Assembly (NCBI GenBank): GCA_051362555.1
Contig: CM120642.1
Coordinates: forward strand, 10,974,001 to 11,038,000
Source: Lingula anatina
Taxonomy: Eukaryota > Animalia > Brachiopoda
DNA: 64,000 bases
Reading direction: 5' to 3'
Part shown: positions 5,419 through 39,016 of the stretch, one piece after another
Position numbering within the stretch: position 1 is the stretch's first letter
How the letters are laid out: each line of letters begins with the position of its first letter
Translations under genes and position numbers: made by a program
Notes under the pieces: model-generated
The model's database searches: none
What the model was told of the DNA's origin: nothing
What the model saw: only the letters and a program-made list of their open reading frames with translations

Positions 5419-5476
<58 letters not shown>

Positions 5477-7755: not shown

Positions 7756-7791
<36 letters not shown>

Positions 7792-10592: not shown

Positions 10593-13500
10593 TCAATATC
10601 CTCGCATTCCCAAGCTTCTCATATTAGCAAAGCTCGCTCGTTGTCTCTTGCTTGCGTCTAATGACTGTCTGTTCTCTTTGGCGCGCGGGTCAAGGCATCG
10701 ACACAAGTCGCCGCAGAGCAAGGGGCGGTTCATGACAAACCCGCCTTCGACAGTGGACGGACAACAGTCTCCGCCGTCCCAATTGCAGTGCTCTCGGTTG
10801 TTTTCTGGATCACAGTATCTGTTACCAACACTGAACTGAAATCGAAAGTAAATTGCTACATGTTTTTTGAACCATGAAGTAATTCAAGTTTCTAAACTGT
10901 AATTAAAACTAAAGCATAATGTAATGGAAGTATTAGGATCATTAAAAGGTGCAAGGAGGGCCTTTCAAAGGCAGGTAAATCACAGTTTCTTGTTCCCTTT
11001 CAACGGATACGAGTAAAAAATCATTTTTCGCCAAAGGACACAATTACGCAATCATAAATACAAAATTCCTTTACATGGTTTAATCCCCGCTGACAAAGCA
11101 CCATTGCAATGACTGAACACATAAACACTTACCAATAGACACTGCTCCATGCACCTAATAGTGGTAATCTCAGGTTGCCATGTCAACCCTCCAGTGCACG
11201 TTAACGTCCGAACGACATTTCTCTCACCAATATATCCCTCCAAATGGCGCTGTGGCTTACCCAGGAGCACAGGGTCGTGGTACAGCCCTTTGCATGACAC
11301 GTTGCACGTGGAACCTGCAAGATATTTGACTCCATACAAGCAGGACATAAATGCAAATCGATATTGTAAAAGGTTGTTTGGGCTGTTAATGCCTGTTATT
11401 ATACAGTACATTGTCAATGCGATGCCAAAACGAAAACAAAAATTCAACATAAACAAGAACCGTCAAAAATTGAGGATATTCAATGAAAGAAACATAAAAC
11501 ATAATTCTCTCATAGAAATAAATGCAACAAGTAATGAGACGTATGTAGAGCGGGCCGCAATTTTTAATACTTACCAACTGAAGTCCCGTTACAGAAAATG
11601 TCCAGCTGGTCATCTACAGGCATTGGGCAGTGACCGGCAATGGTCGTACAAGGGGCAAAATCCTTGTCCCAATGTCCAGTATTCTGGCATGTTATAGTGG
11701 ACGTCATCTAGATCGAAAATTAGACTGCAGTTTTGAAGTTGGCACTTATCGTATAAATCCATTTTAACTTCTTAAAAAAAATATTGAGTTGAAACTATCA
11801 CATGCTATCTCTGATGCTCATGCACGGCTGACAGACCCGTAGCCAGCAATTTCAAAAGGGTGGGGGTGGGGGTGGGGTCTTTTTTCTAAAAAAAAGTGGA
11901 CATTTTCCCTTATGAAACCTTCGTGCACTTAGATATAATTTTACCCAGAAGGGACCTCTGGTTCTTTCGACCCCCCACCCCCACCCCCCTGGCTACAGAC
12001 CTGGCTGATGACGTCAACTAGGCGTACTATTAAGCTGTCTATTAAATATGCATTTACCAGTATGAAATGTGTACATCAATACTTATACAAAAAACAAAAA
12101 ACAAAAAACAATACCGCAAAACGCTGTAGTTAAACAACGTGCTGTACTACTATAGTAGTGTTCTTGAAAATTTACATTAAACCTTCATTATTTCCTGAAA
12201 TATGCGGACTTTGATCCCTGCTTACAACGTATATGGAAAAATATAGGAAAATGGTAAAAGTATTAAAAATCGGCCATGCTCACAACAGCCACCACAGTCG
12301 TGAATCAAGCACTAATATCAGTCAGAACAATTGTTTAAGTTAAATCGCCTGTTACAAGTCAAAGAAATCCATTCAAAGGTTATTTTCCGATAGACAAATT
12401 CAAGTGAGAGATGAGAGCTCTAAAAAATATACCGGTAGAACATGCATGACGGCAATCGAGAAGTGTTACATCTACAGTACGTTCACATAATCTGTGAGAG
12501 CATGCTGTCCTCTGCGCTATACTGGTAAGTCGTAGCTGAACCAGCGACCGCAAAATAAAACTACGTAAAAGCAATTGCAATACAAGAGACAAGCAAACAT
12601 CCAACTACCGCTAGCATAAAAATCCTTAGGACTTGCAACTTACTACATGGGACCGTCGAGAAAAATATCCCAGAAACGTGGAGACTAGTCTGGATGTACG
12701 TCCCGTCCATGAAGGTCTTGGCTGATAAATTTAGTGGAAAAAACATCTGTCAAACGAGTTGTTGGCTTACTTTGTATCTCAACAGTCTTAGAAAATAGAG
12801 AAAGGTGGATTCCCTTAAGCTTAGAATAACTCATATTTTCACACGTGTAATTGCTATGATACTAATTTAAAACTTTTGTAAAAACTTCGGATCATGATAC
12901 ATAAGCAAATGCAGCTGTAATATATAACGCGTGGGAATATTCAAGTCAGCTTATGAATGTAATTCATGTATAAAAATATGGGGAATTAATTTTATCATGT
13001 TGGTTGGTGCGAGTCAGTTCATCTTTAGGCATCGAAAAACACTGCAATTTAAACAGTACTTTTGAAACGATATCAGCATAACCTCACGACTATTTGAGTC
13101 TTCGGGAATTGATAATTTCATTATACCTGATTGTATTGCTTGACAATGTGTTAATATTCCTGATTAAACATCCGTTAATTAAAAAACAGTAGGCATTTCA
13201 CATACAACTTCAAGTGGAGTTGACACAATTAATGCAGAGCGACCGAGATTCGACAGAATATTTGTGAGTATTCTAATGTATAAGTAACATCAAGACAAAA
13301 CAATAAGACAGTTCAAGATCGTGTTAATTTGATGCTGAAATAGGTTAAAAGTTTTTTTCCTGAAATAACCGTGCAGTTAAAACACATTAGTCAGTTTAGG
13401 ATAAGATATCATTTGGCTACCACAGACATACACATCAACCACGACATTTCCGACCATCCAGGTAGTTTATCACCGAGTATTGAATGAATAAGATACGATA

Positions 13501-16500
13501 GAGCTAATACAAATGACCCAAAAATGTTTGTTCCCTAAAACTGTGTAAGTCAATTCAAATTCAAGTGGCCATGAAATGTCATTTAAAGATGTAATAAAAT
13601 ACTGCAAGTTACCTCTTCATCTGGGCATTTCATGGTGCAAGACGAGCCAGAGTCGTAGCGGTCTGTGCAGGCATAAAGGCCATAATATTGTAAACCCGGG
13701 GGATCGCACGTGACTTTATCACAATCAGCTCCAAACCAACTGCCGTCCCCCATGCAGGTCTTGTGAAACGTCCTCCTTCAAAGAATAAGTCAAAAAAGAT
13801 GATCGACCGCTCCTGCTTTCAAAAGGTCGAGTGATTCGGATCAAATTAAAATAAAAATCCTTTTTGGACGTGTGCTATTGACGTGAACATTCATAACTGA
13901 ATATGGGATAAGCTTAAAATTCTATAACATAAAATGAGTTGCAATAAATATTTCCAAAGGTTTGTTTTGCTACTCAGAACTTCCAATAGATCGACCTACC
14001 TGGATTTCGCCATGGAGGTGACATGGTACCCTCTCTGACACCTGAATTTGCATTTGGTTCCGGGGTCCAGTTCATTTTCCTTGCACTGAACTGTGGCCAG
14101 CATGGCGTTAGTCGGGCTGGGTGGGCGCGGACACTTTACTTGACAGTAAGCCACGGGAAGAGACCACAGGCCATCGGAATCGCACGTGACCGTATTGTCT
14201 GTTCCTGTAGAAAGGAATTAATCTCATGCCATTCCTAGTACATTCACATGCAACTTTGTATATTTATCAAGTTTTATTTGTACAACAGACCCTACATCTA
14301 AATCAACCTTACGGATTTCCCTATTTGTAACTAACGTACAATGGCCATGCTATTTACAAAACACCCACCTCTTAACAAAGCTGGTGGGTTGCAGTTAAAG
14401 ATGCACTGGTTCCCAAAACTGGTACCATCAGGACAGACGCTGGTGGCAAACCGAATTCGTGGCTCTCCACACTGTATGGGGACACACATGAGGTCCCGCC
14501 CTGTCCAAACGCCGGCCACACACACGATATCTTCTTGGTGGGAACGGCTAAGGGTATAACTGAGGAAACAAAACACACATGAATAGATTCTCATATTGAT
14601 ATAAGAACGTTATTCTTAGCCAAGTAAATATTTGAGTACCAAACTAAATACATTATATTTCATCCATCGCTTGATCATTTCCATCTCTTCGGTGAAAAGG
14701 AATAAAAGATTGAAGGCACCGTAGATTGGACAAATGAAAAACAAATTGTTTGATGCGTAAAGTAATTTTACTAGATAAATATATGCCTTCCTTTTTATAC
14801 AGCCTCTGAAATGAAATACTCCCAAACACCTTAAATTTTGCCAAAAGCAGTAATATTTAACCATGTGTTATCATGTTTCAATTACCCGTCATGGCAAGTC
14901 ACATCACAGGTGTCGCCATCTTCAGTCCCGGTGCAGTGTACCTCTGCGTTTTCGACAGTATATTGTCCGCATACAGGGAGTGTACAGCTGTAAGCTGAGC
15001 AACGTCCAGTGCTAGGGTTGTACAGCTCTTGATCCGTGCATTGGCTGATTGTAATGGGGTCCAAATGTTTGGAAGACCGAAGGCGAACAGCTGCTATTGC
15101 CACATTTGGGGACGTAAACTTTATTAAAACACCTAAGAAGTCAAAAGAGATTCAAAATTGTATAATAACCCATTTGGAAGACTTATCCGAAATTTTTGGT
15201 AGAAAAATGGGCCCGTTTGATAGTTGAATAAAAGACCATCTAAACGACATCACAAATTTGCTGTAAGAAAAAAAAATTCATATAGGCCTATTAGGTTTCT
15301 GAGAATCAACGATCACTAAAACATTCCCATGACATTATATAATTGCCCTAATCAACATACCTTTTGTTTTAAAGAATGGTTTACTTAAATCATGTTGCAC
15401 CCCAATTTCGACAGGATTGTCCCTACAACGGAGTTCCACCTCTTTGTGCCCGACAGGGTGCAGTTCCCCATTCTCATCAATTAGCTCGACATTTATGGTG
15501 GTCACCTCGCGGGAGTACTCCATAAGGCCATCAGAACCTATGTACACTATGACCATGGACGCTATGGCAGGACGCTGGAAGGACACCTTGAGCCAGAACT
15601 GTTCCCCGGTGCCGTAACCGCCGCATGGGTACCACGAGTGAACAGGGTCTATTTCTGGACCGCACACCTGCAAAACATTGGATCCTATGAACGACTGTTA
15701 CCGCCAAAATAATCGGCGACATGGCTGTCCAGATCAGGTCCGGCCTGATTATGGATATTACATTATGGATACAGCAACTAATAAGAAAACATAAATGTCA
15801 TTTTAAGAGAAAGTTGCATAGATGTCTACGTTGCCCAAAGCATTTTGACGATATTTGTATTTTTAAATGTGCAGGTGTGTCTCATGAATTGTCATTAAAT
15901 TTTTTTTTAAATATTTACTTGACCCTTTCTCATCTTCTATGGTGCCCCATCCCCAACCCCATATAAACAGTATTACAAGCGAAATCAAAGAATGAGACAT
16001 AACCAACCTCATCCCTGTGCCCTACAAATTATAATGTACTAAAATTGTCTTCGTCGACTGCTTTATACATGTACATCTCTTTGCCCCGATTCGCAGGGCA
16101 CTTCTATCATCTTAACGTCGCCCTTAGCAAGATGTTGGATTAGCTAATACATATTTATTGTAGAATGTGAAGATTCTTATATTGCATGCAGGCATTTCTG
16201 TAACGTGAGATGCAAATTAAAAAAAAAAAAACCGCTTTAAACAAACTGATAAGGCCATACTTATACGCGTCTGATCAAAACACCATAAAAGTTTTTGGCC
16301 ATAAAGAGCACTTGTTAAGTAATAATATTATGAAGGTGGTACTAAAATTATCTAGACTTTCATCAATAAAATACCTGCGGGTGTGTGGGTGGCCCAATGA
16401 CCACCGACTCTGGACATGACCTCCGCTGGTAGACGGGGTTAGCAACTGCTCCGGCTGCCCACTGGTCAAAGTGTCCGAGCGGGGTGTAGTAGCCGCAGTC

Positions 16501-19500
16501 TTCCACACTTATTTGCTTCTCGAACTCCTCACACACACCGTCGCCGTCATGGCGATAACACAGACTAGGGGAACCTTCAAACATGGGGGTTTAAATCAAA
16601 CTATTTTGACTTTCTTATTATTTTCGGTCACCTGTACCATGCTGTCACTTAATATATTTTATACGGTTCCATATGGCTGTATCTTCACGTATTAAATTAT
16701 TGAAATATCGACAGAAATTCCGCTTCCAACTTGACCAATATTACATGTATATTAGACATATTAGTTTCAGTATTACCTCTGCATTTAAAGAACTCCTCTG
16801 TCATGCAGTCAATGGAACAGCCATCACCATCAGCGGCATTTCCGTCATCGCACTGTTCGTTTGAATCCCTGGGAATGTATTCCAAGTTTATGATTAACAC
16901 TCATAATATCTTAACAAAAAAGAAAACAAGATGCATCTAAACAATATATATTACACAATCGCATGACTTTTTGTGGTCTTAGTTTGTCCATTTTTTGTAT
17001 GTTATGGAATACTGAAATTAAACTGAATTATAGTTTTTTTTTCGGTTTCGAGACAATTCACAGAGAAAAGAAACCAAACATTAATGAATCTGAAATGGTA
17101 TCACAGCCAGCTACAAAATATACTGGTGTAGAAGACAACTTACAGATGACCATCTCCGCAAAACGGACTCCCATGGACATAGCTAATCGCCGGGGACAGC
17201 GCGCTGCCCTTGCCGTCCACTAAAGCCTGGATGCGGTACGTGTAGTTCGTGTCAGCTGCCACACTCCTGGTCGGAAATCCGATAAAAAAAGACTCATGGA
17301 ATATTTTCTATATGCAGAGAGAGGCTTTCCATTTTAAATTTGGTAGTATAAATTCTTTAAGGCAAAATGGGTGAATCGCACATGTGCGTGTGTGTGTGGG
17401 GGGGGGGGGGGGGTATTCAATCTATATGCCCTAAAACAAATTTTGGTCGTGAAACCAAATTTTTTTACCTTTTTACGCATCTCCATCCTTTCCTCAAACA
17501 CGCATCTGAGATACTTTGGTGAGTTTCGGTAGGATCGAGTGACATTTATCACAATGAAGCTATCGTTTTACGAAGATCGATCCTACTCCAAATGAACTAT
17601 CCCTGAATGCAATCAGATTGGCAAACAAACAGGTTCCTCCTGGAGTTGAGTAGAATGCAGGAAAGCTGGTCATTATACGAGTAGGTATGAAACAAGAGGG
17701 GTGTGAATCTCTCAATCTGATTGCATTCAGCGAGAGTCCCCGCTGAGTTGGATTGACCTACATCGTACAAAGAGAAGTGGGTCAACCAAGGAATACGTGT
17801 AGGCCGGAGTGACCGACCCAATACGGTACAATGTCAGGCAGTCATCATTTGGGTTATCAAAGTTATACTTGGGCATTACATGTACCTTGCTGACAGCTAA
17901 TTCGGGACTGTCATTGGTCGGGTAAGACGGAAATTGCCCAAGCAACCGATCTATCAGTTTAAATATAGGCTTTTTTCAGTAAATATTTATAAATATATAT
18001 ACATGCAGCATGCTTCATATAACCTTCGTTGTATTCTGAGCACGTATTTGTGCCATATCATTATCATTTCGAAACTCGTCAACTTAATTTATGACAGTAG
18101 GCCCCTTTGTCCACTTAGACATATGAAGCACCTTCACCTATAATTTTCATGTTGTTTTGCCATTTACCCTTAAATTGGACCTTCCCTAATATCCATGGCA
18201 CTGTGACCATACAGTTGCAATATAAATGTACAGATAAAAACTTCTATTTTTAAAACTTAACCTATAAACTCAACTTATAATATTACCTTTCCTCACCTGT
18301 CAATTAATTTACATTCATCTACTGCTGCCGGGGCTCCGTCGGGGAAGCTGGGCTCACGATATACTTTGTATTTGAGAGGCCTGCAGCGAGTACAGTTGGG
18401 ATGGTTTGGCTTAGAGACGAGCTCAACGGCATCTATGCCGACCCACGGCTTGCTGGTGTAGATACGAACCTGAGTGACAAAATGCCGGGGGATTATGCAA
18501 CAGAAAATATATTATAATGGGACTTTTTGATAATGCTGAAATAAACCCAGACCCCGTTTTACGAAAGAACTTTAGTCGAGAACGGGTCTTAAAAGCTCCG
18601 AAATTATAGGAGTGAGTTGACCCAGGAAAATAAGCAGTCGTCGCCAAATAAATAAAAATATTGGACCTGATAAACATAAAGTAGGGAATGATAAGGGCTA
18701 AATGTATAAACGTTGCTATGTTGACAACATATCCATCCTGGATCAAAATAGATAGAAATGGTTCAGAGTAAGAACAACTTCAACTTTATGAAATTCATGA
18801 AAGGGGGGGAGGCATGTAAAACTCGAGTAGACTGACACGGAAGTACCCAGAAATAAAATGATGATTTCAAAGCTGCTGTGCATATATTACGATTTCATTA
18901 TCTTTACAACTTCATAAATCGACACTTGTTTTTAATTTTTGTTTGGATTGTCAAATTTCTGTTTGCAGTCTTTCCTAGCAGAAAGAATATAAAATGCTAA
19001 TTTTAAAGTATCGAGTTTGTCCGTGAAAACATTTTTTTGAATATTTTCGTTAACAGCTCATCGGCCTTGAATATTCCATCAGACAAAAAAAACTTTCTAA
19101 CGTATAATTACAAAAGTCATCTCTTTAAAAGGTCGGGCATTAAGTATTGTGATTGTATCCCTCGTGTTATAAAACATGTGATTTATTACAAATATCAACT
19201 GGACAACGGCATCATTGATCGTAAATCCGATCCGATGTGCAGATCAAGTATCTTGTTTATCAAGAAGAGTCCTTCCGTCTAAAAAGGAGTCAAGCAAGGC
19301 GACACAGTATTTTATGACCTTTACTTTACAGTCCCAGCAACAATTTAAAGGACCATATAGCCTTTTAAATCACAGTCCAGGTGATTGTTTAATAGACCGG
19401 ACCCAAATACGGTATCACACTGACAAAGGCCAAAGTCAAAAATACTATATACTTCACATTTTTGAAACAGAAGTGACAGTGATGTATTTGAGAAATAGGT

Positions 19501-21140
19501 ACATTGAGCCTTCGTGTCTTTCAACGGGATTCAGATGTGAGAGGGGTTGCTAAGATCTAGTTCACTCGCAGTGCCATCCAACTAAGCTTTGAACCGGTCC
19601 TGAATCGGCCTAAGAGGACCGCGCGATCATTTTTTTATCACATTGCGTATAAATCCGTAATTCGGCATGCTTGAGCAACAACTTTGACTAATTGCAGTCA
19701 CAAGTGTACGCATGGTTGGCTTAATATTGCACACTTTTCGTTTATATCAGATAAATGTCACCATCTTTGGACAGCATGGCAGTAATTACAAATGTAGGTT
19801 GTAGAAAGTTTACTGAATCACCGCATGCTGAGGTCCCTTCACGGCGTACTCATTGACTTGTGCATAATTTGTCCGCTACGATAATGTATAGATTTGTATA
19901 TTTGTTATAAAGTTGTTATGATTAGAATAGAGAGCCTGTAAAATGTAACTTGTACACATTTTAGTGCTCAATACAGATTATTATTATTATAATCTGAACC
20001 GAACCAGTCCAATCGCAATACAGGGAAAGCTTGGGGGGGGAAACGTGTGAACGACCCCTAGATAGCCCTCGATTTCCGTTTATTTTCAACTCTCTGCGCG
20101 CCTCAAACCCCTGAGCGTACGATTAAGGATCGAGCAAGGATTTGTCCTTTTGAAAGCACATTGTTGACGTTTAGGCAAGTATTCGTTTATCTTAAATCAT
20201 TTTGATCACATGTACTAGTAAATATATGACATTTTGCGAATTAAAAATTGTCACAAATTCACTCTTTAGTCCAGATTGGAAAGGGAAAACAACAATATAA
20301 TGTTAAGAAGGCGTTTATATTTACGATAGATACATGTAGCAACGGATTTTTAAAGCACAAATTGAAAAGTTTCATTTAGTTTTATTTTCATATTTTAGGC
20401 GAGGGCGCGGAAAAACGTTGCATCTTGGCCAGTTTATTCATTTTAATTAGGGACCATTTTCAACAGCTCGACAAAATGCAATGTAGCATAGTTTACATTC
20501 TTCTTATTAACTTCGTGTACCTTCACACAGCGTCCACATTAGGTGAGTGTACGTATGTTAAAAAACGATTTAAAAAACCGTCACGCTTTCCGGTCCAGCG
20601 CATTTTGCTGGATTTGAATATATGCAACAACAGTTAACACACATTTTGTCCTAAAATTGGCCATAACAGTTCTTAAGTAGTATGAGACAAGTACTAAAAG
20701 AGGCAAGCTGTCGCAGTTATTACATGTTATATTGATTAAAATAACGCCAATACTATTCATAAATATTATTCATCAAGAATTCTCGAAAAAAAAACTATGT
20801 ATTCAATTTTATATGCTATTATTTAAAACTTCAGCTCGCGTTATTTTGTTATGGTCATGCACCCCATTTCCATAGATTAGATCGACCTACTTTGGATCGA
20901 CCTAACTCCCTGGGGGTTCGCGCTGAATAGCTGTCAGCCGGGCGGACACGAAATTTAATTGCCCCTTACGGCTTGTAGTGGGCGGGGACGGACACTTAAG
21001 GGGGATTATCTGACGGTAGTCTGGTGAGACTCCCCGCGGTGATAGATCGATCTAAAGTTGTGGGAACAGACCCATGGAGGTGGAACGCCGTCTTTTGTTA
21101 ATGACACAAAAGTCAATCAAAATAAATATCCGAATTCTAT

Positions 21141-21174
<34 letters not shown>

Positions 21175-21177
21175 TCA

Positions 21178-21228
<51 letters not shown>

Positions 21229-24200
21229 AATCAAAACGAATAATATTCCATCATTTTTGCAACACACTCTCTTTCTTTTTCTTTTTCTTTTTTTCGATGA
21301 AGCATGTCCTCCAAATCTCGCCCCTTCGTCCGACCGCCGTCATCTCTATGGACCAAAGAAGAGCACTTCAGTGACTTTGTTCGATTGTGAAAAGTCATGC
21401 GTCGTTAACAAGCCATCCTTGACCTCATCTTTCACGTCGTGCGATGAAGAAACATGCGGAACCAAATTCGGAAAAATATTTCTTGAAGCCAATAGGTCGA
21501 CAGATCTGAGTACCCTACACATTGATACTCCTTTACATATAAGGTTTATAGGAAATGGGGTGAGTTATCTCCGCCAAGAAGGTTATGTTTTTGGTTCCGT
21601 TGGTCTGTTTGTGTGCTTGTCGCTTTGCCCGTCTGTCTGTTGGCTACATTAAGGAAAAATTTGTGGGCGCATTTTAATAAAAAATTCAAGAACTGTCGGA
21701 AGGGGACCGAGTAACAAACAATGAGATAGAGGTGATCTGTTAATTAAAGTTAATGATTAATTAACCATCTGTCTGTCTGTTTCCTAGCAACAGTATAGAA
21801 AATTGCCGTAGAAAATTCTCTTTCAGTGTTTTTCTAGTTTATTACATACACTGTATCAGTTAACTGCAGTAGGAAAACATTTTTACAACTTTCAGATTAC
21901 GATATTTTATATCTCTACACAGGCCCTCGGCAATTTTTTATTCGTCGATAAATGTAGGGGGTCACGATATGGGGCAATTCTGTCCATTTGAAAGACTAGA
22001 AGAACGCATTTATATGCGAAACCGTAACGACTCTATGGATCGTTTAAAAAAAATCTAAGAGCCTAAAAAAATATCGGAAAATATCCATTCTATTTTAGAT
22101 TTGCTTCTCGTGGAGCTACTCATGCACGGGTCGGTTAAAACACGGCTGTGAAGACACCTGCTACTCCGAGTGTCACTCCACGATGGCGGAGGAGGTGACA
22201 TTACATTACGATACTAAGTGGAATGGAGAGGCCAAACCACTTGGGGTCACCGGTAAAACTGAACGCTTTGTAAAGTTTAAACTCGGTAAGTGTACGTACT
22301 CTGCGTAAAATCAGCTAAAAAATCATCTGTCAAATTAGACGCGCTATATTATATTTTACATTAATATATATTAAATTTGTCTTCAAATGATTTTCATTGC
22401 CTGGCAGTGGTTGCGCTAGTTGAGCGTGGCTCTGATACGCAATCGGTAATAAGTGTGTCAGATTTGTGTTATGTGTGGTGCAGGGCAAAGTGTGCTCGTC
22501 AGAAAAGCCTTTTCATCATATTATGAAAAGGCTTTTCATTATAACAGTAATTAATTGACTGTTACATAGAATTCTACGTTATCTCCCAAACCTTATATTT
22601 ATTGCCAAGGTAGACAACAGCGGTATTTTTTTAACTTTCAGAGCAACTTTCAGCTGGAATTAGTGGGAGTAAGAGAAGCTGGAGTACACACTCCCTGCTA
22701 ATGTCGGTCACGCTTCTCATAACTGTCACTATGTGCACCAGAGTGTAACGTTGGCGGTTTAATCAAGTCTAAGACAGAATTATGAGGAAATCGAAAGGAC
22801 AACCCTTGCGAGTGAGATAACACACATCGCAGGATTGCAATATTTTAGTCGGAACTATTGCGCATATCGTCCAAACTTTACGCTCTCTGATTTTTAACGA
22901 CATATATGATAGTAGGCCCAGTTGGTGTTATGGATCTATACATCAGTGCACGGCGCCATCATGAAAGTAACACTGCTTCACAACAAATTGACATTAAAGA
23001 ATCCTAAATCGTCAGGTTGTGCGTTATAGTGCATACCTAGAACGTTGTTATCACAACAGCGATACTGTGCATATCGGGTATGTGTACAAGCTTTCTTATT
23101 TTCAAAACTTCTGCCTGTTCTAAGACAGAATATTCATAATTTATTTTAAGATTTCGGTTTCATCATTTACACAGAATATAAGGTTAAATATACATGTTGC
23201 AGTGGGTATGTAACTGTAACGTATATATCAACTTAGATATTGCATTCATACAGCTTTAGTAAATCATTTTAAGGACATTTTAAAATCAAATAAAATGAGG
23301 ACAACAATTCTTACCAAATAATTGTCGGTTTGATCAGTTAAAACAACTTCTCCATTGTTCTAGAAGTTTGTGTACAAAAATTTAATCACATATATGTATC
23401 CAAATGGTTTGTCAACAAAATGCACATACCTTGTTCACTTTTTGGTTGACGTCAAGGTGAGTTGTGAATGGCATATCACAGAACACTGTTATTAGACCCA
23501 AGGATACGGTGGTGCCATCTATGAAGTGGAGCTCAACGTCCGCTATGGCGTCCACGGTGTTCCACGTCACCCACAACAACAACCTGTCCAGTGTGAATGC
23601 ATATATTTCATTATCAAAATGCATTAAATGTGTTTGTTTCTGTGCACTGACCATAGTTCTAGGTCACGCCTTACTAAAGAGTTAGTAACTACTTTGGGAG
23701 GAAAATTTTGGATATTGGCTTGCCTTCCTTTCGCAATTTAAGAGGAACCAAATGCATCAAGTGTTTTAGACCCAAAAGTACTATATGTAAGATGTTTAAT
23801 TATTACGTCAAATTGTGTGATCGAAATGATGAAATTAATGTCATTGATACATGTATATCAGGCATGCTTGCTTTGAACAATAAATGTTTGCAAATTAATC
23901 TCTTTTCTATTTCCCGATATATATAAACATTGATAGTTACATGTACATTTAATAAACAACAATTAGGCATATCTTGAGAATGTAATCTTGTAAAACGATT
24001 TACCCTCTCTTTCGTTCTCTCCGACATCACACATGTACAGGTATAACCTACCTAGTGGGAATAACCGGTACACTAAAGCCGACGTCTATGAAGCAATCCA
24101 TATCACAGAAATCCTGCTCAGAGAACCAAATACCTTGACTAGGAGTGCACCTGTCAGCATCTGGGGCTCCTGTAAGAACATGTTTGTTTAGAAAAAAATA

Positions 24201-27200
24201 TTAATCGTCTGCTTGATACATTCATATGTTGAAAAAGTGTGAACACTCAGAAATTTTAATTGAATTTAATCAATATTCATTCTTTTCCCAAACTATTTTG
24301 TCCCAATAAGTTACAATGATGGCAACGGGTTTGTCTGTTCGCTGGTCAAAATCAGAGCACGGCTTGTTGGTCTTCGATCACAACTGAGAAAAATCGATTA
24401 AAAATCGTTAACCCACCTAAGACCTCGTCCGGTGTGACCATGACAGTCATATTCCCAGGGTTGGAAGAGGTCGCAGAGGTGGCGTACTGGCCCAGAGAGT
24501 CGTCCTGGTGACACAGAGAACAGAACTGATTCACATCGTCCTCGTTCTGGGTGTTGAGAGGAGGAATCCACGCCAAAGTCACCGTGTCTGCGGCAGTGTT
24601 AAGTATCTGGAGTAGAAATCTAGACGAATGTCAAATGTTCTTATTGTGATTTCAGTACACAATAATCAGTTATTTATCTTTGCATTACTGATTTTGAATG
24701 GGCAAATTCCTCATTTTGTGTATGTTTGCAGTTGAAACCTATTTCGATGGTGAAAAAAATTCAAGTAATTTTCAGTATTTCAAGAGTTTAGCGTTTCATG
24801 TTTGAATGCCAGCATGAAAGGTCCATCTCCGCAGAGTCTGTTGTGTTTACGTTTTGGTCAAACAACGGACATATTTAGTCCAGTTTGGACTTACCCTTGG
24901 TGCAATTGGTATTGGTGAAGGTTCCCTCCCAGTCATCCAGGTCCCGTACCTCAGATCGGCGTAACAGTGAAGACGGGCCACCTGCTGAGGAGTGAAATGA
25001 TCCGTACAATTGTCTCCTTCTATAAAACACAAAGACAAAGTAAAGAAATTGATGGATCGAACGTTGGACAATAAACAAGTCGAAAAATGACCACGTGTCC
25101 ACGTGGTTCAATAACTTTAAGACCCAAGCCAAAAGTCGAATGTTCAAGTTAGATATCAACATAACGAACAGCCATTTTGTGTATTTTGAGTATGACATGT
25201 AATTCGACAGTTGCCCGATATTTCTGAAGCAAACCTATATTCCAACCATTTTGTCATTGTTTCGGGTATACTGTTTATTCCAGACTCAGTGACAAGTTGC
25301 CATGCCATACAAAGTTTCATATACCTGCGTAACTCATGTAGTTTCGGTACGGCGTGTTTTTGTAAACTGTCCCTGAGCACGTAACTTCATCCGGGTCTCG
25401 GCATTTGGAATTCATCGGAGTAGGGTTTGTATCTGAACACAAATCCCCGAGCTCCAAAGAAGGGCGTGACTCGGCGCACTGGTCATCACATCGGAGGTCA
25501 GAGACGCCATGATGCACGTGAAGGAGACCCAGGACGTGTCCTACCTCGTGGACTAGGGTGGACATAAAGCCTGGACGTCCATACCGGCTAGCATCGATAA
25601 CGACTCCCCCTAAAACACAGAACATTGGCATATAAACGTTTACAAAGGGACACATTCGACGACCTGGAAGCGTTTGAATCTGCAATTCAGTAAGGAAGAC
25701 ATTATTTTCCATTATGTTCCACTCACATTATAATTTCTTTTCTTCTACATTACGTCTTCTCGTATTTTCAAACATGTCTCAATGTCTTTTAGAGGCAAAC
25801 GCATTTGACTTACTATCCAATTATAACATTATTAATTACCTCCGCCCAGGAGGTCGTGTTTTGTTTGTTAGTTCGCCACCAATTTAACTCAAAAATTTAC
25901 GGACGGATTTTGATGAAATTTTTAGGATATGTCGGCATGGGCTAACTTTAAAAGGATTATATTTTGGTGTTGGTTCAATGATTAAGTAATGGTTAATTAT
26001 TAGTTAATTGTTTGTCTTGGCGATGTCTGCGTTCTCTAGGTGCTTTTCTAGTTTTGCTTATTTTCATCGATGAATCAACCTAGTACAGAAACGTGCCAAT
26101 TCACTTGTACAAGTAAAATGTTACTTCAAAAACATTTTAGCGCCAATCCTATATATGCTTGGCTTGTTCTTAAAAGGCCTTACTTAAAGCCCTAACAACA
26201 TGTGCTAACCTTTACTTCCAAAGACATCATACTAGTGCCTGCCAATACGTGCTTACAGAATTGTTCCCATAAAACCTCACCCAAAAGCACTGGCAGCCCT
26301 TATACCTGTACCTTGTTCTTCTAAAGCCCCTTTCTCCCAGGGGTATGTGGCCTGTCCAAGGATACTGGCTGCAATCAACTCTGGGACGAACACGTTCAGG
26401 TGTGATTTGCTGGATATATTTAACATGGCTTTGTATTCAGACAAGGTCAGGTAGGTTCTGAAACATACAATTTTATGATAGTCCTATAGAACCTCTGATA
26501 TGATCTGTTTAATTTCATACAAAGGCATTTTTGCTGTGACTCGAAAAGGTGAAATACGTAGTTTTTGAATTTGTTTTATTTGGAAATAAGATTGACGATT
26601 TTTATCTACTTTCCATGTTGATCAAATTTCAAGGGCAAGTCTCTCAATCTAACGCCAAAATCTATACAGACACCTTCAAAAGATTATTTCAACGGCTACA
26701 CCACGTCTTTGCGCTGTCATACGTTATGGAACGCCGTTGAACGAGATCGACTAAGACACGTGTTGTTCTCACCTGTGTGGCGACTCGGGGTCTATGCAAT
26801 GTCCTCTGTCACCGGTCTCACAGCAGTCACCCCCGTCCCAGCCATAGCGGTACTGGTTACAGTTCAGGTCACAATAATGGTTCCCTTTGTAAAAAAAATA
26901 TGAATTAGATTTGAAAACTGCAATGGATGTTTCACCCTTAAGAAAGCGTTATAAGAATCGCATAATTTTAAATCTAATTCTCTCTCTCTCTCTCTGTGTG
27001 TGTGTGCACTTTGTATGTGTGTGTGGGCATCATCCGTGATAGCCTAAAACGAGGCTGTATTGAAGCCATGCCGTCAAACGTGCAAGAATCCGAGCGAGGT
27101 GGGGTTAACATTGAGGGTGAAATTCTATGCACTGAAAATATCCGATTGTCATCTTTAAAAGCAAAACAATAGTGATACACAAATCACAGTGAAGTTGTAT

Positions 27201-29655
27201 TCCTGTAATAGTCAGTAATTAAACATTTTTTTAGAAAAACCAAGCAGAGAAATAAGACCCTACCCATTGGTGCATTCTGTCAGCTTTCTTTTGTTTGTTT
27301 GTTTATTTGTTTGTTTGTTTTTTCGTTTTGCACCACGCTCAATTCTGCGAAATCTCGCTTGATACTTCGGCTATCTCGGATGATCTAAATTTCATCAATC
27401 TGAAACAAAAGTACACGCGTTTTGTGCCATTGTTATTCACAAAATTAAATTACCTATTTGTTCTTGGTCACATGGCAAAGACAAACAATCCCCTCCATCG
27501 TAGCCTGTCGTGGTGAAGTTACAGTTACGATCACATTTATTGTCCCCAATTTTCGCTGGATCGCACTCTCTTAAGACTTTTCTCTTTCTCATCGAACTGC
27601 TTTTTACTTCTTTTACCTCATACGTCCATGAAATGTCATAACGTAGAAATGCATCTTGTAACATTGCATGTTGTGCGAGTATCTGAGAAGAGGAAACGGA
27701 TGGGTTTGTGCCATCATCATCGTAAACGTTGATTAAACGGTATCGAAGTTCTTTCGGTGCGCGCAGTTCTGGGTGCGCTACGTAACTCCGGACTACATCT
27801 GGGTCATCGCAGACCGTTCGACCACAAGGTGGCGTTGTCAGTGCCATGTCGAACCGGTGATCATCAATGGTGGAATATACCCTGAGTGGTTCGTTGTGGC
27901 CGTCTTCTAGTTCCCATCCTGTAAGGGTGTTGAAGTTGGACGATATAACGAGGTTTTGGTGTCGTGCGGTTGTCTTTCCCTCAAACATTTGACGAACTAT
28001 TTCGCTGTGATGCAGCCCTTTTCTCCAGAGGCGTATTTCGTCTAATGATCCTCGGAAATATCGCTTCGCAATAGCGTCTCCGCCAATTTCAAATTGTTTG
28101 CAGCGATGATATGGTTCACTGAAAATATCCCCTCTCTGAGTTGTATCAGTAGCCACTTTGGCGCCATCTAGATAAAATTTCATTTTATGGTTGGCATAAA
28201 CAGCAGCAACATGGACCCACTTCTCGGGAATATAATTTCTGGACGATGTTAATAATGTGCCTTTGCGAGATCGCTCGGTATAAAGCGAGAAGAAGATGCG
28301 CGCATCTTTCCTTTCGTTTTTCCGCGTAGCTTTTATCCCTATTTGCCAGGTTCCTGGGTGTCGTTGACCAGTTTCTGTGACACAGGTATCAAACACGCCT
28401 GTCAAAAGAAAAGTTTTTAAATAAAATATGTGTGCCGGTTAGAAGGACAACAACTCTTCATCTTCATTAGTTATGACACAATCATAGGAAGATAGAACAT
28501 AAATCCAATAAAACCCAATGTCGGTTCTTCAAAAGTATTGATCATTACTAATTATTATTAGTAAGTACACATTTTCCAGACATTTTCCTTTCGCTGCTCG
28601 GATATGGTCAAAATTCACACCGTTCACACAACTGAACATTCTTATATTCGACCCAGAAACTTTCAAAACCCACACCGCTCAAATAATTGAATATTCTTCT
28701 GTTCAATCCAGAAACTTTCGTACCACGTACACGTAACGCTGCTGGGACTCTCGCCAAATTCAGTCATATATTAACACGCCTCCTCTTGTTTCCAACACAC
28801 CCGTATAATCTTTTTATCTGACTGCATTCAGCGAGAGTACCCCCGGACTTAGTTCGTACTACTTTGCGCGATAATTTATTTGTGAAGGCACCTTAATTTT
28901 TGAAATCAGGCAATAATAAGACATGTAGAAAAATCGTCTTTGATAGCCTCTCTCAGTAAATTGTAAAAATAATTAAGTGAAATAGAATTATTTAAAAAAA
29001 AGGGAGTATTACAAAAACAGAAATAACAATAACAGAAACCCGTTTATGAACTTGGACAGAAGTGTCATTAATTGAGAAAAATAGTCACTGGTGCATGACT
29101 AAGCTCTTTTCGTTCATCAGAGCAGTAACTTTAGAGATGAGAATTTACAAAAGAGGTGGAAGGACATCATCGTAATTGCTTGAACGAAATTGAGCTCTAA
29201 ATCGAAAGTTGCGTTGATATTGTACAATCGTGACGCCAGGGGTATGCTACGTATTATAAGTATGCGATCATCTGGTAACGCTGAAGTCGTGTGATTTAAT
29301 GTTATCGCCGCACTTGGCCAAGTTTTGTTCAAATTATCTGCAGTTACCTGACCGCTATTGTACGCGTGCTTGTGAGTTTGGATTGTGGCCAATGTCTGGT
29401 GGTGTTTGGTGTGAAACAGGTGCTGTACCGGACGACCTATATGTTACTGGTTAAGAAAGAAGGAGGAAGCGCGGCAGATTTGTTTAGATAACATACAGGA
29501 ACAGTAATGCTTTGTAAATAGAGACATGAAAAAATGTTAGCGTGTTTTTCAAATATGATCGGAGCTTTTCAACAAAAAGGGAAATGGTGACTATATATTG
29601 TAATTTCATTATTTTTTCAAGAGTACTGATTAACTTTTAAACCTGCTCTCTCTCG

Positions 29656-29691
<36 letters not shown>

Positions 29692-31509
29692 AGAACACCT
29701 ATCCTCTCAGCTAGACTTTCCTGTACAGATTATAAAGAGGCAGACAGACTTCTGTAACATTAAGGCCAATTTCAACATCCATATATTAGTTCGACTACTC
29801 TACAAAAATACATATCCATAAAATGTTTCAAAAATGGTCCCAGAATCACGCCACTTCCCCGGCCTATCACATCACGGAGTTGTTAATAAACCTCCAGCAG
29901 ACATCGGGCTAGCTGTAATAAAAATCAAACATCCTCAGGAACTTGAATGCTAAGATTTATCTACGGGGAGCAAGAATTGCTGCAGGCTTCCATTCAAAAC
30001 CGCAGTTTATCCGTAAATCAGGATACGCTCGCGGTAGACACGGAGTAAGAATAAGAGTAGATATCGTGAGAGAAAAGCACTTTTAACTCATTCACATTTT
30101 TTATTTGGCATTTATGGATAAAATGATTTATTTATCTTTTTCACTGCTTTATAATTAAGTAATTTATCAATTTGTGATTTTCTTCTTCTACTTCTTACCT
30201 CTTTCAATACGTTGCGCAGAACATCATTTCATCAAGGCTTCCATCTTTATATTGGAAGAATTTTAATCAATAATCTTATTTATCGGAAAATAAGTAGAAA
30301 TAATGCTTTATTCACATTTATGAGTATCATTATTTTATTGAATATAATTTATATTTGTCTGATACATTCATAAAAACTAAATTAAACTAAATCAATGTTG
30401 GAGGGATCAAACGTACCTGTGCGTTAAAGTCAAGCAAGTCCAGGAGACTTTTAGTAAAGATAGTAACAAAGCGCCCTTGCGATAAATGGCAGTACTAATA
30501 TTACAATCCCGCTACGCATTTTTCTAAAGAATTTAGGTGCCGTTTTAAATTGCCCTTGTTTACTTTGCAAGTCAGAATTGTTGGATAACTTCCTTGGTGC
30601 CTTTGGCAAAAGTCTTGTCCTCCCGCCACACCCACTACCTCCTCGTGTGTGCCGTTTAAGCGTTGTTCTCTTTTCGGTTATTTGAAAACGAGATGATGAC
30701 TTCTTTTAACCAGAAAATATTGAGACCAAAGAGTGTGGATTCAAAAGTATTAAGTTATCAGAGTTTTAACCCAGGGATATTTGAACCATTGACCGGGCAG
30801 CATTATTTTCCTAAGTGCGTTACACTTGATTTAATTCTTGTGTGAGGGATCGACTGAGACGAAAGCATTTCTCTCGCCTCCTCTCTTTCTCTCTCTTTTT
30901 CTGCGCCCGCGTCTAACGCTTTGTAATGAATAGGGGTGGATAAGACCCCTGGGATCCCCATATTTTCAAAACGGCCAGACAATGAGCGTATTCATTTTTC
31001 CTTTTTTTCAAAATTTTGCGATATCATTCATTTCCCATCGATTCTTTTGAGGCTGACTCGTGATAAATCCTTTGATTGAATAACACTTACGCGAGTATAT
31101 AATTAACATCTACGAATGTGAAAAAGATGTAAACATAAGCAGTGCCAAATTGAGTTGGCAGTTCCGATCAAAGTCCGCATTTATTACTCGTTTCTTTTCA
31201 ATTCTGCTGAGTTGCAAGGTTCAACACGCCCTAAGATGGACTCGTGTATATTTATGTTTGGACACAAACTGAGAACAGACTTAGAATTTCATTCACTGTG
31301 TATGGTGTCAGCATGGAACAAAGTCCACCTGATTTTTTAAAGGCATTACATGTTACATGTGCTTCACGAACAAGTCACACATGTATCCTTACAAAGAGAG
31401 GTTGATTTTGTTAAATCGGAAGAAAAAGCAATCAGAAAGAAATGGGGAGTGTGTGAAGTTGATAGAAAATACCAGAGATGAACGAACCAAAGATCATATA
31501 CCTCATAAT

Positions 31510-31565
<56 letters not shown>

Positions 31566-31589
31566 TTTGTGTGTGTGTGTGTGTGTGTG

Positions 31590-31620
<31 letters not shown>

Positions 31621-34600
31621 AGGAATATCACTGCTTTGCCATACAGACAGTTCTGCTCGAGCAGATCACTGAGCAGCAAGTTCCGCGTGTTTACCGACCA
31701 TCCCACGCGGTTAAATCGGCAATTACTCTGATTACTACATCCTCAGGACACGTAAACAAGTGGTCGTTTATCAGCGCCCTGTACAACTTCAGCAATCCTT
31801 TCACGTGCCTTGCACTTATAAAGTTCTACGACCATTTGGGCAATGTGTAAATAAGAATAAAAATGTAGCATAGAGCCTCAGGATTTAAAAAGGCTCTTTT
31901 TTGATAAATGTCAATTCCATACATTTGATTCTTGTTCTTAGTTTTATAAACCATGGTATTCGACGGCTCAAATAAATTTCTTTCAAAATCTAGCTAATTT
32001 GCCCTTGTGTCAAGCCCTTCCAATCATGATATACATATTCCCCCATAAAGAGATTATTTGTCCAAATAACAGACAGACAGACAGCGCAGACAGACGAGAA
32101 AACTCAACATATCGTACTCGCAATCTGTCGGGAGTGATTTTTGTCCTGAGGGTGGAGATGGAAGGGCGGCAATAGGAGAAAGAAAAGTGCCTTGTTTATA
32201 ACTAAGTGAAAAACGTTTAGTAATGCAGGGATTAACAAAAACATGTATTTTGACGCTGGGCCAAACATCGAGCAATGTACAAACAGCACTAGTTCACATG
32301 CGAATACCTAACGACTGGTTACATGTTAACAGGTTTAGATGAAAAATACAAAGAAAACAAAACAGCAAATTCTTAACCACAAAACTAAAATGATCATAGA
32401 TATATGGTTTTGCTTAAATAAATGGTGTGTGTGTATATAACAATTAAATCGAATTTGAAGAGAAAATGTTATTCGTGAAAAATCAAATTTCACCTCGAAA
32501 GATGCAGTCTACAATTCCTTTTTTGGAAATTCGCGGAAAAAAACAATAACAGAGCTAATGCAATCATCGTATATTGCACGCACCCAACGGAACGCAGTAA
32601 CTATTTTATGAAACTGGCATTGAGCGACTTTAGCCAGACAATAAACTATCAACAGGATCTTACACGTATGTTTTGACTTTTCTGAACCAGTTTGTACATT
32701 TACACATTTTTCTTGCGATATGTCGGGGTATGTTCTGTTTTATGTCGAATTAAACGCATTTTCTATTTAAATGATTTGCACAGGGTTGGACATGTTATTC
32801 AGGAGAAATTGTTTTAAAAATACCGTTGAACGGGCAACCCTTATTGCAAACTGATCGCAAAATTGATAAAATCACATTTCTACTAATAATCTAGTTAGTT
32901 AATTCAGACAACTTTTTTCAGTAAGTGCAACAATATGATAACGATTTTGCGAGGAATGTGGGCGTTTTTCAACAGAGTTGTGTAAATATGACAGTAAAAA
33001 GCTGTGAACGCGACCCGACAAAAGGGCACTAAAATGGTCCCCAGCTCTTTAAGATAAAGTATTACAAATTACTCTGAAAAGATAGAGACACACTCAATGG
33101 AGCACTGGTATGTACAGACTTATATCAAATTGTTTTAAAAACGGAATGAAAAAAAGGTGAGTTCTCGTTCGCAAAACAAAGGGGTGCGTAAAACCAAACA
33201 CCCTCTTGATAATTTTGCGCTTTCAAAATTAAAAGGCAATTTTCATTCTAAAGTAACTTCCACAAAATGTGACAGTTGAATATGATAGACGAGTCAACAG
33301 ACGTAGCCAACTATCACCCAATCAAGTAAGGAGACGGACCGTACAATTTCAAAAATGGAAAATTTAGATAATAGGGGTAATCATATTTGTTTCTCTCACA
33401 ATATGGTAGTCTAGCTTCAAAATAAAAAAGGCAACCTCACATACCACAGATACAACAATTGTGGGCCGAAAGGAGGGAAATGAATTCGCATTTTTTTCGT
33501 GATTTTAGATAGATAGTTTTTATTGCAATCAAATATACCGCTGTCGTGGTAGTTAATTACAATGTATTCAGGGGCGGACCCAGGATTATTTGAAGGGGGA
33601 GTCCGCGGATGCAAAGCAGACCCCTCCCCCTTGGCGTGGGGTTCGGGGCTCGCTGAAGGGCCCAAAAAACTTTTGGTAATTTAGAGGGCGAACGATGCCA
33701 TTTGGTAAGGTTTGGAACTACGATTCAGATGGTTAAAATTCTAATTTCAAGGGCGGACAATCGGTGTAATTTTTTCAGAAATGGAAGGGGGAGTCAGGAC
33801 CCCCCTGACACCCCAATAACTCCGCCACTGGTATTACAGAGAAATACCAGTACAATATAATACGATAGGAGAGAGACTGTGATGATATAACGTAAGAAAT
33901 TACTTATATGTAAGTAATTATGCAGCAATATGATAATGTACATATACACATGTATAGCATGATGAATGCACACAACATACTTGCAGTACAAAACCACATA
34001 CCACATACTGTTACATTTGCGTATACATTGTAAATTCTTAATGAAACGAGCAGATTAAAAATGTGACAAATGCAATTATATTTTCACTCACCGACAATGG
34101 GGACCTCGTCCAGTTGGCCGCCCTCGGGTTTCAGCCAAAATTCCACCGTAAAATCGTTCTTTGGAATCTCGAACGCAACATTCCGACCGCTGGGCTTCAA
34201 TCGCAAAACTTGGGCGTCCCCGGTAAATAACAGCGCGTGTCCATACTTTCCTCCCCTGGCTGTGCTCGACCCGCGTCCCGATCCGTCCACGTGGCGGCGA
34301 TGTCTCCCCAAGGACTGGTGACTCAGGTACTCGTCGGCTGATTCGTGGACCCCCCTGGAGTGACGGTGGTGGGAGGTGGGGTGGACCTGCAGATCCCGAG
34401 AGACATCCGACCGACGGTGGGAAGCGCCACCAAGACGTCTCATATCTCGCCTATGCTGCGTCGCTGCCAGCCAAGCGGCTCGGGCACGTTCTCCATACCT
34501 CCTGTGATAGTCCTCCACACTGCCGCCTTCACATGGTGGTATTTTGACAGTTACTAACAATAACACGGTAAATATCAAACTGTATTTCAATAACACCAAA

Positions 34601-34773
34601 GAACAAACCGAGGAGGTCATCATTGTAGATGCCTCCCGTCTTTCTTGAACCCCTAGAAATTGAAAGGAAGATTCCGTCCCTAGTGAAGTTGAACGTCTCA
34701 ATGATGAACTTAAATGGCGAGAACTTGGCTTTATGTTGTGGTTTGCCAGAGAAATGACCTTTCCCCCACTCAT
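10593..34773 (-). CDS. PAPPA: Pappalysin (PAPP-A family, M43B metzincin), complete, 21 coding exons
   Basis: Approximate exons: 34773(or 34623)-34092, 28398-27454, 26884-26773, 26457-26312, 25609-25325, 25019-24895, 24606-24417, 24169-24052, 23583-23430, 18469-18297, 17266-17144, 16868-16777, 16574-16375, 15667-15361, 15132-14886, 14559-14370, 14204-13999, 13775-13613, 11707-11575, 11314-11133, 10835-10593; all GT-AG. Signal peptide, RHRR furin site, LamG ([13 protein letters not shown]), [13 protein letters not shown]1/2 (DGGDC), [17 protein letters not shown] Met-turn, [18 protein letters not shown]-x-DGDGCS, five CCP modules, LNR3 ([14 protein letters not shown]). Confidence 0.96.
11832..12003. 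mobile_element. Non-autonomous DNA transposon (MITE), CAG..CTG ends, 5-bp TSD (hAT5-like)
   Basis: TIR CAGACCCGTAGCCAG / CTGGCTACAGACCTG, flanked by direct repeat GCTGA (11827-11831 and 12004-12008). Confidence 0.75.
17596..17737. mobile_element. MITE, family copy 1 (related copy at 28747-28838)
   Basis: ~25-bp TIR ACTATCCCTGAATGCAATCAGATTG / CAATCTGATTGCATTCAGCGAGAGT; internal GAAACAAGAGG segment shared in inverted orientation with copy 2. Confidence 0.7.
20476..22748 (+). CDS. Nested antisense gene in pappalysin intron 9: 205-aa secreted, Cys-rich, probably GPI-anchored protein of unknown family
   Basis: Exons 20476-20542 (phase 1, donor GTGAGT), 21303-21559 (long polypyrimidine tract, donor GTGAGT), 22099-22285 (donor GTAAGT), 22642-22748 (TAA). 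Total 618 nt, no internal stop. Signal [23 protein letters not shown]; 10 Cys in the mature part; C-terminus [38 protein letters not shown] at 23289. Confidence 0.8.
20860..21073 (+). mobile_element. ~214-bp MITE, PIF/Harbinger-like (3-bp TSD), copy 1
   Basis: Clearly homologous along its length to 53193-53407 (GATCGACCTAACTCCCTGGGGGTTC...GAGACTCCCC...ATAGATCGATCTAAA); imperfect TIRs; ATG on both flanks. Confidence 0.75.
21140..21226. repeat. (CT)n(CA)n microsatellite
   Basis: Read directly. Confidence 0.9.
21565..21837 (+). mobile_element. Helentron-associated (HINE/DINE-like) non-autonomous element, copy 1
   Basis: Starts TTATCTCCGCCAAGAAGGTTATGTTTT, contains TCTG/TTTG tetramer runs, ends TTTTCTAGTT; homologous to 25836-26051. 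Confidence 0.6.
25836..26051 (+). mobile_element. Helentron-associated (HINE/DINE-like) non-autonomous element, copy 2
   Basis: TTACCTCCGCCCAGGAGGTCGTGTTTT start; subterminal inverted TTGGCG; ends GTGCTTTTCTAGTT. Confidence 0.6.
28747..28838. mobile_element. MITE, family copy 2 (shorter, inverted relative to 17596-17737)
   Basis: ACTCTCGCCAAATTCAGTCA ... TCTGACTGCATTCAGCGAGAGT termini. Confidence 0.6.
31510..31620. repeat. (CT)n(GT)n microsatellite
   Basis: Read directly; further (CT)n at ~29645-29691 and ~43838-43868, (GT)n at ~35471-35506, (ATT)n at ~48192-48238. Confidence 0.9.
33569..33830. mobile_element. Non-autonomous DNA transposon, CAG..CTG ends, 5-bp TSD (hAT5-like)
   Basis: TIR CAGGGGCGGA / TCCGCCACTG, flanked by GTATT (33564-33568 and 33831-33835); GC-rich interior in AT-rich intron. 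Confidence 0.8.

Positions 34774-38985: not shown

Positions 38986-39016
<31 letters not shown>

What the first reader, a model, noticed from the sequence alone, without database searches (positions are those of the whole stretch)
20476..22748. Hidden antisense gene nested in pappalysin intron 9: 10-Cys, signal peptide + GPI-like tail, no recognisable family
Seen in sequence: four exons with canonical splice sites and matching phases (1,0,1) give [206 protein letters not shown] signal-peptide exon ends in phase 1. The mature part has an even number of Cys (10, including CxxxC and CxxxCxxxC spacings) and an NRS sequon. The C-terminus is small residues, a spacer and a hydrophobic tail, as in GPI signals. 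Only one of three frames is open across exon 3, and it is the one the phases require. Established: TIMP genes nested antisense in synapsin introns are a precedent for nested protease-regulator genes. Inference: this could be a cell-surface partner, inhibitor or substrate of the surrounding pappalysin/astacins, i.e. an undescribed metzincin regulatory module.
Basis: partly seen in the sequence, partly recalled or inferred. Interest (0 to 1): 0.88.

Follow-up and report, generated by a model that had tools for sequence, protein, structure and literature searches.

The report
Orphan surface-protein gene inside pappalysin intron
In the lamp shell Lingula, a four-exon gene sits backwards inside an intron of the pappalysin protease gene and encodes a small cysteine-rich protein with no relative found, predicted to be anchored to the cell surface; databases already list it as an uncharacterised gene, and nothing found here ties it to the protease.

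Summary
Four GT-AG exons (20476-22748, +) give a 205-residue frame inside intron 9 (18470-23429) of a 22-exon pappalysin on the - strand; spliced reads confirm that host intron. The three donors are the top three of 288 GT sites, and a gene finder trained on neighbouring genes recovers the core (63 bits; best of 300 shuffles 52). The gene is not hidden: RefSeq holds another allele as Lingula anatina LOC106157637 (XP_013388804.1, 205 aa, 9 differences, 6 in the tail). No relative or family was found (5.8-billion word search, Pfam, NCBIfam, PDB sequences, ESM Atlas). A GON-domain lead failed a direct test, AlphaFold gave no usable model, and the most sensitive search could not be run. No spliced read of the gene appeared in 8 RNA runs (6-30% of each read), some of which express the host. 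Best reading: an independently transcribed, lineage-restricted, likely GPI-anchored surface protein that merely lodges in the intron. The pappalysin-partner idea rests on adjacency alone, and its precedent does not fit: TIMPs nest in synapsin, not in a protease gene. A real orphan in a common architecture; low-moderate interest.

The parts
20476..20542 (+). Nested gene, coding exon 1: start codon and predicted signal peptide (residues 1-22), ends in phase 1. The exon probably begins at an acceptor at 20399, with 77 nt of 5' leader that holds no ATG.
   Evidence: (donor rank 1 of 288)
21303..21559 (+). Nested gene, exon 2: residues 23-108, five Cys, sequon N86; identical in the RefSeq allele
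22099..22285 (+). Nested gene, exon 3: residues 109-170, five Cys spaced x6, x7, x3, x3; 2 differences from the RefSeq allele
22642..22748 (+). Nested gene, exon 4 coding part: predicted GPI signal (candidate omega site S178 in both alleles, polar spacer, hydrophobic end, no cytoplasmic tail) and stop; 6 differences from the RefSeq allele
19265..19380 (+). Possible upstream exon of the nested gene (5' leader or N-terminal extension): strong donor, no coding signal; unverified
22993..23294 (+). Candidate polyadenylation hexamers (ATTAAA at 22993, AATAAA at 23289), both inside the host intron; unverified
18470..23429 (-). Pappalysin coding intron 9 (4960 nt, second largest of 21), the host intron
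   Evidence: (6 spliced reads)
10593..34773 (-). Host pappalysin gene: 22 coding exons, 1697 aa, 14 residues different from XP_013388811.1
20861..21066 (.). Dispersed MITE-like repeat in intron 1 of the nested gene; second copy at 53194-53400 (82%). The deep RNA signal here comes from copies elsewhere, not from this gene.

Best explanation
This is a four-exon protein-coding gene on the strand opposite to pappalysin, inside its intron 9, that is likely transcribed on its own in a narrow tissue or stage and is predicted to make a 17 kDa disulfide-bonded, GPI-anchored cell-surface protein whose job is likely unrelated to the protease. Shown: the exon chain, the open frame in two alleles, the host intron and its splicing. 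Predicted by rule: the N-terminal signal takes the chain into the ER and is cut near residues 20-23; ten Cys close up to five disulfides; N86 is glycosylated; the tail is replaced by a GPI anchor near S178. Inferred: with no catalytic motif and no cytoplasmic part, it most likely acts as a surface ligand or recognition protein that binds an extracellular partner, and it is lineage-restricted or fast-evolving. The intron is only its address; any effect on pappalysin would be through opposing transcription, not protein contact.
For: Splice, coding and whole-gene scores exceed shuffles and other non-coding regions. RefSeq holds a colinear 205-aa model from another haplotype, on a scaffold of the same length as the full pappalysin model (546,245 nt). 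Differences between alleles avoid exons 2-3 (2 of 147) and cluster in exon 4 (6 of 35; Fisher p=7e-4), and all ten mature Cys, the sequon and the S178-G-S site are kept. Only the two ends are hydrophobic: the best 19-residue means are 1.68 (N), 1.39 (C) and 0.63 (middle). No HExxH motif. No reads on the nested exons where about 62 were expected across five runs at the host's level. Opposite-nested genes are common and less co-expressed than neighbours (PMC12274878, passages).
Against: No spliced read was seen in 8 of 8 runs laid, so transcription is not shown. Signal and GPI calls come from simple rules, not from SignalP or NetGPI; the RefSeq allele has Pro in the hydrophobic tail. The recognition role has no direct evidence. 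Orphan status rests on searches with limited reach; the full HMMER search of 1.84 billion representatives was not obtained.
Confidence: 0.6

Rival explanations
1. First reader's module: the protein is a cell-surface partner, inhibitor or substrate of the host pappalysin or of the flanking astacins.
For: Both products would be extracellular. Substrates of invertebrate pappalysins are unknown and invertebrate stanniocalcins are thought unlikely to inhibit them (PMC11925022: abstract, passages, section 20), so a partner is missing. One of four rule-compatible signal cuts leaves an N-terminal Cys, as in TIMPs (TIMP feature recalled).
Against: Position is the only link. TIMP's host gene is synapsin, not a protease. 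No C-x-C start and no Pfam match to any inhibitor family. No reads in runs that show host exons. No similarity to the five pappalysins held (best 3.5 bits).
Confidence: 0.07
2. The gene is a very divergent member of a known extracellular family (GON domain, Ly6/three-finger, PAN or other) that single-sequence searches miss.
For: A multi-exon gene with a separate signal exon and an even Cys count looks derived from an older secreted-protein gene (inference). The searches that ran need shared words or large clusters.
Against: GON tested directly: -0.4 bits against a profile of 21 fetched GON rows, and 724 of 3000 shuffles scored as high. No Ly6 CC-x(3-5)-CN motif. Pfam none; NCBIfam only sub-threshold Cys-repeat hits; Atlas best feature score 0.83 to an unnamed cluster and nothing usable among named ones.
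Confidence: 0.15
3. The protein is secreted or held by a C-terminal membrane helix, not by a GPI anchor.
For: The tail is only moderately hydrophobic (1.39 and 1.37 in the two alleles), ends in Arg-Val, and is the most variable part.
Against: A small-residue omega site 27 residues from the end is kept in both alleles, followed by a polar spacer and a hydrophobic end with no cytoplasmic residues; net hydrophobicity is kept despite four changes in the last 11 residues.
Confidence: 0.1
4. The locus is a silent or decaying gene (recent pseudogene) that still looks like a gene.
For: No reads in 8 of 8 runs. The protein differs between alleles five times as often as the host does (9 of 205 against 14 of 1697, p=3.5e-4). 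Only one copy is on record.
Against: Frame, Cys and length are intact in two alleles; the donors are the strongest in the intron; changes avoid the mature part. Only 6-30% of each run was read, the tissues are not told, and the tool drops some reads without notice.
Confidence: 0.08

Closest known systems
RefSeq Lingula anatina LOC106157637 (XP_013388804.1, UniRef100_A0A1S3HUS3), 'uncharacterized protein'
   Same: Same gene: 205 aa, colinear across all three junctions, 196 of 205 residues identical; scaffold of the same length as that of pappalysin XP_013388811.1.
   Different: Another allele (9 substitutions). The record carries no function. No paper in the held library names its ids, nor do three sets of supplements searched.
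Opposite-nested protein-coding genes of animals (e.g. ceh-10 in polq-1; 567 pairs in C. elegans, PMC12274878)
   Same: A whole multi-exon gene inside one host intron, on the other strand.
   Different: Nothing in the architecture. Whether this nesting is old or young could not be tested.
TIMP genes nested in synapsin (PMC2825198)
   Same: Small secreted Cys-rich product encoded antisense in an intron.
   Different: That host is not a protease; that nesting is conserved from cnidarians to mammals; this protein lacks the C-x-C start and any Pfam TIMP match, and has a GPI-like tail.
Small GPI-anchored Cys-rich surface proteins of the Ly6/uPAR/Quiver kind (features recalled)
   Same: Signal exon ending in phase 1, ten Cys, predicted GPI tail: it would work like one in topology.
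   Different: About 155 mature residues, different Cys spacing, no terminal CC..CN motif, no Pfam match.

Membership tests
Opposite-nested gene | Whole coding sequence inside one spliced intron of a host on the other strand | tested here: met
   Host model and 6 spliced reads over 18470-23429; nested exons 20476-22748
Opposite-nested gene | Own transcript from the opposite strand | tested here: inconclusive
   No spliced reads in 8 of 9 listed runs laid, 6-30% of each read; RefSeq model exists, its evidence not visible
GPI-anchored protein | N-terminal signal peptide | tested here: met
   Hydrophobic N-terminus (1.68) and four (-3,-1) sites after residues 18-23; rule-based only
GPI-anchored protein | Omega site, spacer and hydrophobic C-terminus without cytoplasmic tail | tested here: met
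   Candidate S178 in both alleles, 27 residues from the end; rule-based only
GPI-anchored protein | Anchor attached in cells (PI-PLC release) | not testable with these tools
   Needs expression
TIMP (NTR fold metalloprotease inhibitor) | N-terminal C-x-C and Pfam TIMP/NTR match (feature recalled) | tested here: not met
   The first mature Cys is followed by two Pro, with no second Cys for 26 residues; no Pfam family
Ly6/uPAR/Quiver three-finger proteins | Terminal CC-x(3-5)-CN motif and Pfam match (feature recalled) | tested here: not met
   No such motif; no Pfam family
GON domain (PF08685) | Profile match above chance | tested here: not met
   -0.4 bits; 724 of 3000 shuffles as high, with a 21-row profile whose three full rows are Pfam GON at E 1e-68 or better
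Metzincin protease | HExxH zinc motif | tested here: not met
   None in the nested protein
Pappalysin partner (STC, proMBP or IGFBP-like role) | Binding to or cleavage by pappalysin | not tested
   No complex job sent: adjacency was the only reason and the monomer has no usable model
Lingula shell matrix proteins | Listed in the shell proteome | tested here: not met
   Its accession is absent from the supplement of PMC13425148, which lists Lingula shell proteins by XP_ accession
Any known fold | Confident model with a structural match | tested here: inconclusive
   AlphaFold2 single-sequence pLDDT 29 for the full protein and for residues 24-172; Atlas model 0.29, TM at most 0.39

The most novel reading that the evidence does not exclude
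The nested gene encodes the first cell-surface substrate or regulator of an invertebrate pappalysin, a GPI-anchored protein of a new disulfide fold, kept inside its protease's own intron; it would point to what pappalysins did before the IGF-binding proteins existed.
Probability: 0.06. Interest if true: 0.8.

Novelty: new member of a known kind. Interest (0 to 1): 0.24.

Why it matters
As it stands it adds one annotation: an uncharacterised Lingula gene is a nested, likely GPI-anchored orphan, a modest target for a new small disulfide fold. It would matter much more if it proved to be a pappalysin substrate or inhibitor, because invertebrate pappalysins keep the whole vertebrate architecture yet have no known substrate (PMC11925022). 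Nothing found here raises that above a long shot.

Tried and rejected
Relatives: exon 2 against longer proteins gave 1 hit among 49 candidates, the RefSeq allele; the full protein gave only itself among 56 candidates; cluster of 1. Pattern scans: 0 of 84 stretches in metagenomes, 0 of 2 in viral contigs; 2 of 47 in prokaryote genomes passed a lenient filter but are chance matches of one seed peptide in unrelated 940-aa bacterial proteins. PDB sequences: none for the full protein, three sub-threshold hits for single exons. No paralogue in the window (best other tblastn E 0.49). The HMMER search of 1.84 billion representatives was never obtained, so remote or spiralian relatives are not excluded. 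No whole genome is held, so paralogues elsewhere in Lingula and conservation of the nesting are untested. GON lead (recalled likeness): no GON match in 201 bacterial genomes or viral contigs; 26 metagenome loci were fetched and cut to 21 distinct rows (5 duplicates dropped); the test was negative. Two AlphaFold2 jobs were unusable, so no fold search was run. No complex prediction was sent. The deep reads at 20861-21066 are a dispersed repeat. Small depths (0.1-0.5) in the bins holding the end of exon 2 and the GTCT repeat behind it are most likely from that repeat (table 5c), but in X8 and X9 they cannot be placed within the bin. Skipping exon 2, exon 3 or both gives truncated frames of 39, 127 and 57 aa. 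Earlier scan findings: none by sequence, place or the first word search; the eight listed concern other things.

Full report
Observation. Twelve Cys are present, ten of them between the signal and the tail, with one N-glycosylation sequon. The window is animal DNA of about 37% G+C. The - strand carries a pappalysin (Pfam Laminin_G_3, LNR, Peptidase_M43 and Sushi hits). Fitting GT-AG boundaries to RefSeq XP_013388811.1 gives 22 coding exons and 1697 residues with 14 differences. The small gene lies wholly in coding intron 9, 18470-23429. Spliced reads skip exactly this intron in two runs, 3 reads each, and in the stranded run they have the orientation expected of a - strand RNA.

Is it more than chance? 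With splice matrices from the 21 host introns, the three donors rank first, third and second of 288 GT sites on the + strand of the intron. The acceptors are ordinary (31, 46 and 16 of 264). An order-3 coding model trained on four other genes of the window gives each exon its best score in the one required frame of six. Exons 2 and 3 beat all of 7932 and 8976 overlapping intron windows; exon 4 is matched by 0.6% of 10386 and exon 1 by 6.9% of 11004. A small gene finder run blind on the intron returns exons 2, 3 and 4 and the donor of exon 1 at 63.0 bits, against a mean of 25.9 and a maximum of 52.0 in 300 shuffles, and 16.7-37.1 in five other non-coding strand-regions. It also adds an upstream exon and a 45-nt exon, so the ends of the model are not fixed.

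What it is. A search with exon 2 found one protein, RefSeq XP_013388804.1, 'uncharacterized protein LOC106157637 [Lingula anatina]', also 205 residues. Its scaffold has the same length as that of the full pappalysin model and the accessions are seven apart, so the nesting is inferred to hold there too. A second RefSeq scaffold holds the pappalysin in two pieces: one runs into intron 9, the other starts in exon 14. That suggests a gap over this locus and would explain why one copy is on record. Differences between the alleles fall 1 in the signal, 2 of 147 in exons 2-3 and 6 of 35 in exon 4 (p=7e-4). The mature part varies like the host (2 of 150 against 14 of 1697, p=0.38). This is the pattern expected of a constrained domain with a loose, cleaved tail. 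It is not significant against the 1.6% heterozygosity reported for the species (p=0.09; PMC4595640, passages).

Expression. Nine RNA runs of the same species label were listed and 8 were laid, 6-30% of each run being read. None shows a junction of the nested gene, and the bins over exons 1, 3 and 4 are empty in all 8. Host exon 9 has an estimated depth of 1.6-5.4 in five runs, at which about 62 reads were expected on the nested coding sequence. So in these samples the gene is well below the host. This does not show silence: the tissues are not told, sampling is partial, and the tool drops some reads without notice. That RefSeq models draw on transcript alignments is recalled; the evidence behind this model was not visible.

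Family. No Pfam family for the exons or the whole protein; only sub-threshold Cys-repeat hits in NCBIfam; no PDB sequence relative; no relative among the candidates of a 5.8-billion word search; no usable Atlas lead; none in viral, metagenome or prokaryote contigs. A recalled likeness to the GON domain was tested with fetched GON sequences and failed: -0.4 bits, with 724 of 3000 shuffles as high. The TIMP, Ly6 and zincin motifs (recalled definitions) are absent. AlphaFold2 without an alignment gave pLDDT 29 twice.

How it most likely works. Shown: gene structure, intact frame in two alleles, host splicing. Predicted by rule: ER entry by the signal, cleavage near residues 20-23, up to five disulfides, one N-glycan, and GPI transfer near S178, leaving about 155 residues (17 kDa) on the outer face of the membrane. 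Inferred: with no catalytic motif and no cytoplasmic part it binds something outside the cell as a ligand or recognition protein, in a narrow tissue or stage. It is not in a Lingula shell-protein supplement that uses the same accession type (PMC13425148, supplement search).

The pappalysin link. The open question is real: invertebrate pappalysins have no known substrate, and invertebrate stanniocalcins are thought unlikely to inhibit them (PMC11925022: abstract, passages and section 20). But the precedent cited does not carry the inference, because TIMPs are nested in synapsin, a non-protease host (PMC2825198, passages). Opposite nesting is common, 567 pairs in C. elegans, and such pairs are on average less co-expressed than neighbours, although more than half share at least one cell type (PMC12274878, passages; PMC13343718, passages, gives counts for flies and mammals). 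The reads point the same way. I put the partner reading at about 0.07.

Print record. No paper in the held library names the gene's three ids. 'Lingula anatina' with 'pappalysin' gives one paper, whose main text has no 'nested' or 'intron'. A search for PAPP-A with GPI-anchored and invertebrate gave two unrelated listings. Supplements of PMC13425148 and PMC13121700 lack the ids, and that of PMC4595640 has no hit for 'pappalysin', 'GPI' or a peptide of the protein. Subscription papers, bioRxiv supplements and figures were not seen.

Verdict. A real, already annotated gene; a correct and careful reading by the first stage; an ordinary architecture; an orphan protein with a predicted GPI anchor; no support for a metzincin regulatory module. 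Interest 0.24.

Noticed in passing
window 4664-8486 (+) and 37974-42329 (-): Two copies of an astacin gene with a PLAT-like C-terminal exon flank the pappalysin in inverted orientation, both pointing at it; 73-86% nucleotide identity, introns included.
   Followed up: partly
window 50627-52252 (-) and 54956-56572 (+): Back-to-back pair of intronless ~520-aa secreted-type proteins with DUF7043 matches (DUF7044 below cut-off), 37.6% identical, each with a hydrophobic C-terminal tail.
   Followed up: partly
window 59323-61710 (-): 796-codon open frame with no Pfam family above cut-off: a long N-terminal part with spaced aromatic and basic residues, hydrophobic stretches and an acidic C-terminal half.
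   Followed up: no
window 20861-21066 and 53194-53400: MITE-like repeat, very abundant in polyA RNA from other loci (hundreds to over a thousand-fold depth); a trap for expression estimates of the nested gene.
   Followed up: partly
RefSeq XP_013400123.1 and XP_013400124.1 (P0004, P0008): A second RefSeq scaffold holds the same pappalysin as two partial models that lack the end of exon 9's successor exons 10-13; likely a haplotype scaffold with a gap over this locus.
   Followed up: partly
window 45079-49162 (+): Exons of a likely FkbM-type methyltransferase with an N-terminal membrane anchor; Pfam hits are below cut-off.
   Followed up: no
window 2206-2454 (+): C-terminal ubiquitin-like domain of leucine-tRNA ligase (PF22947, E 1e-23); further exons upstream.
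   Followed up: no
window 22502-22537, 46215-46306, 57257-57569: Self-complementary stretches: an 18-nt-arm hairpin in intron 3 of the nested gene and two larger palindromic elements.
   Followed up: no
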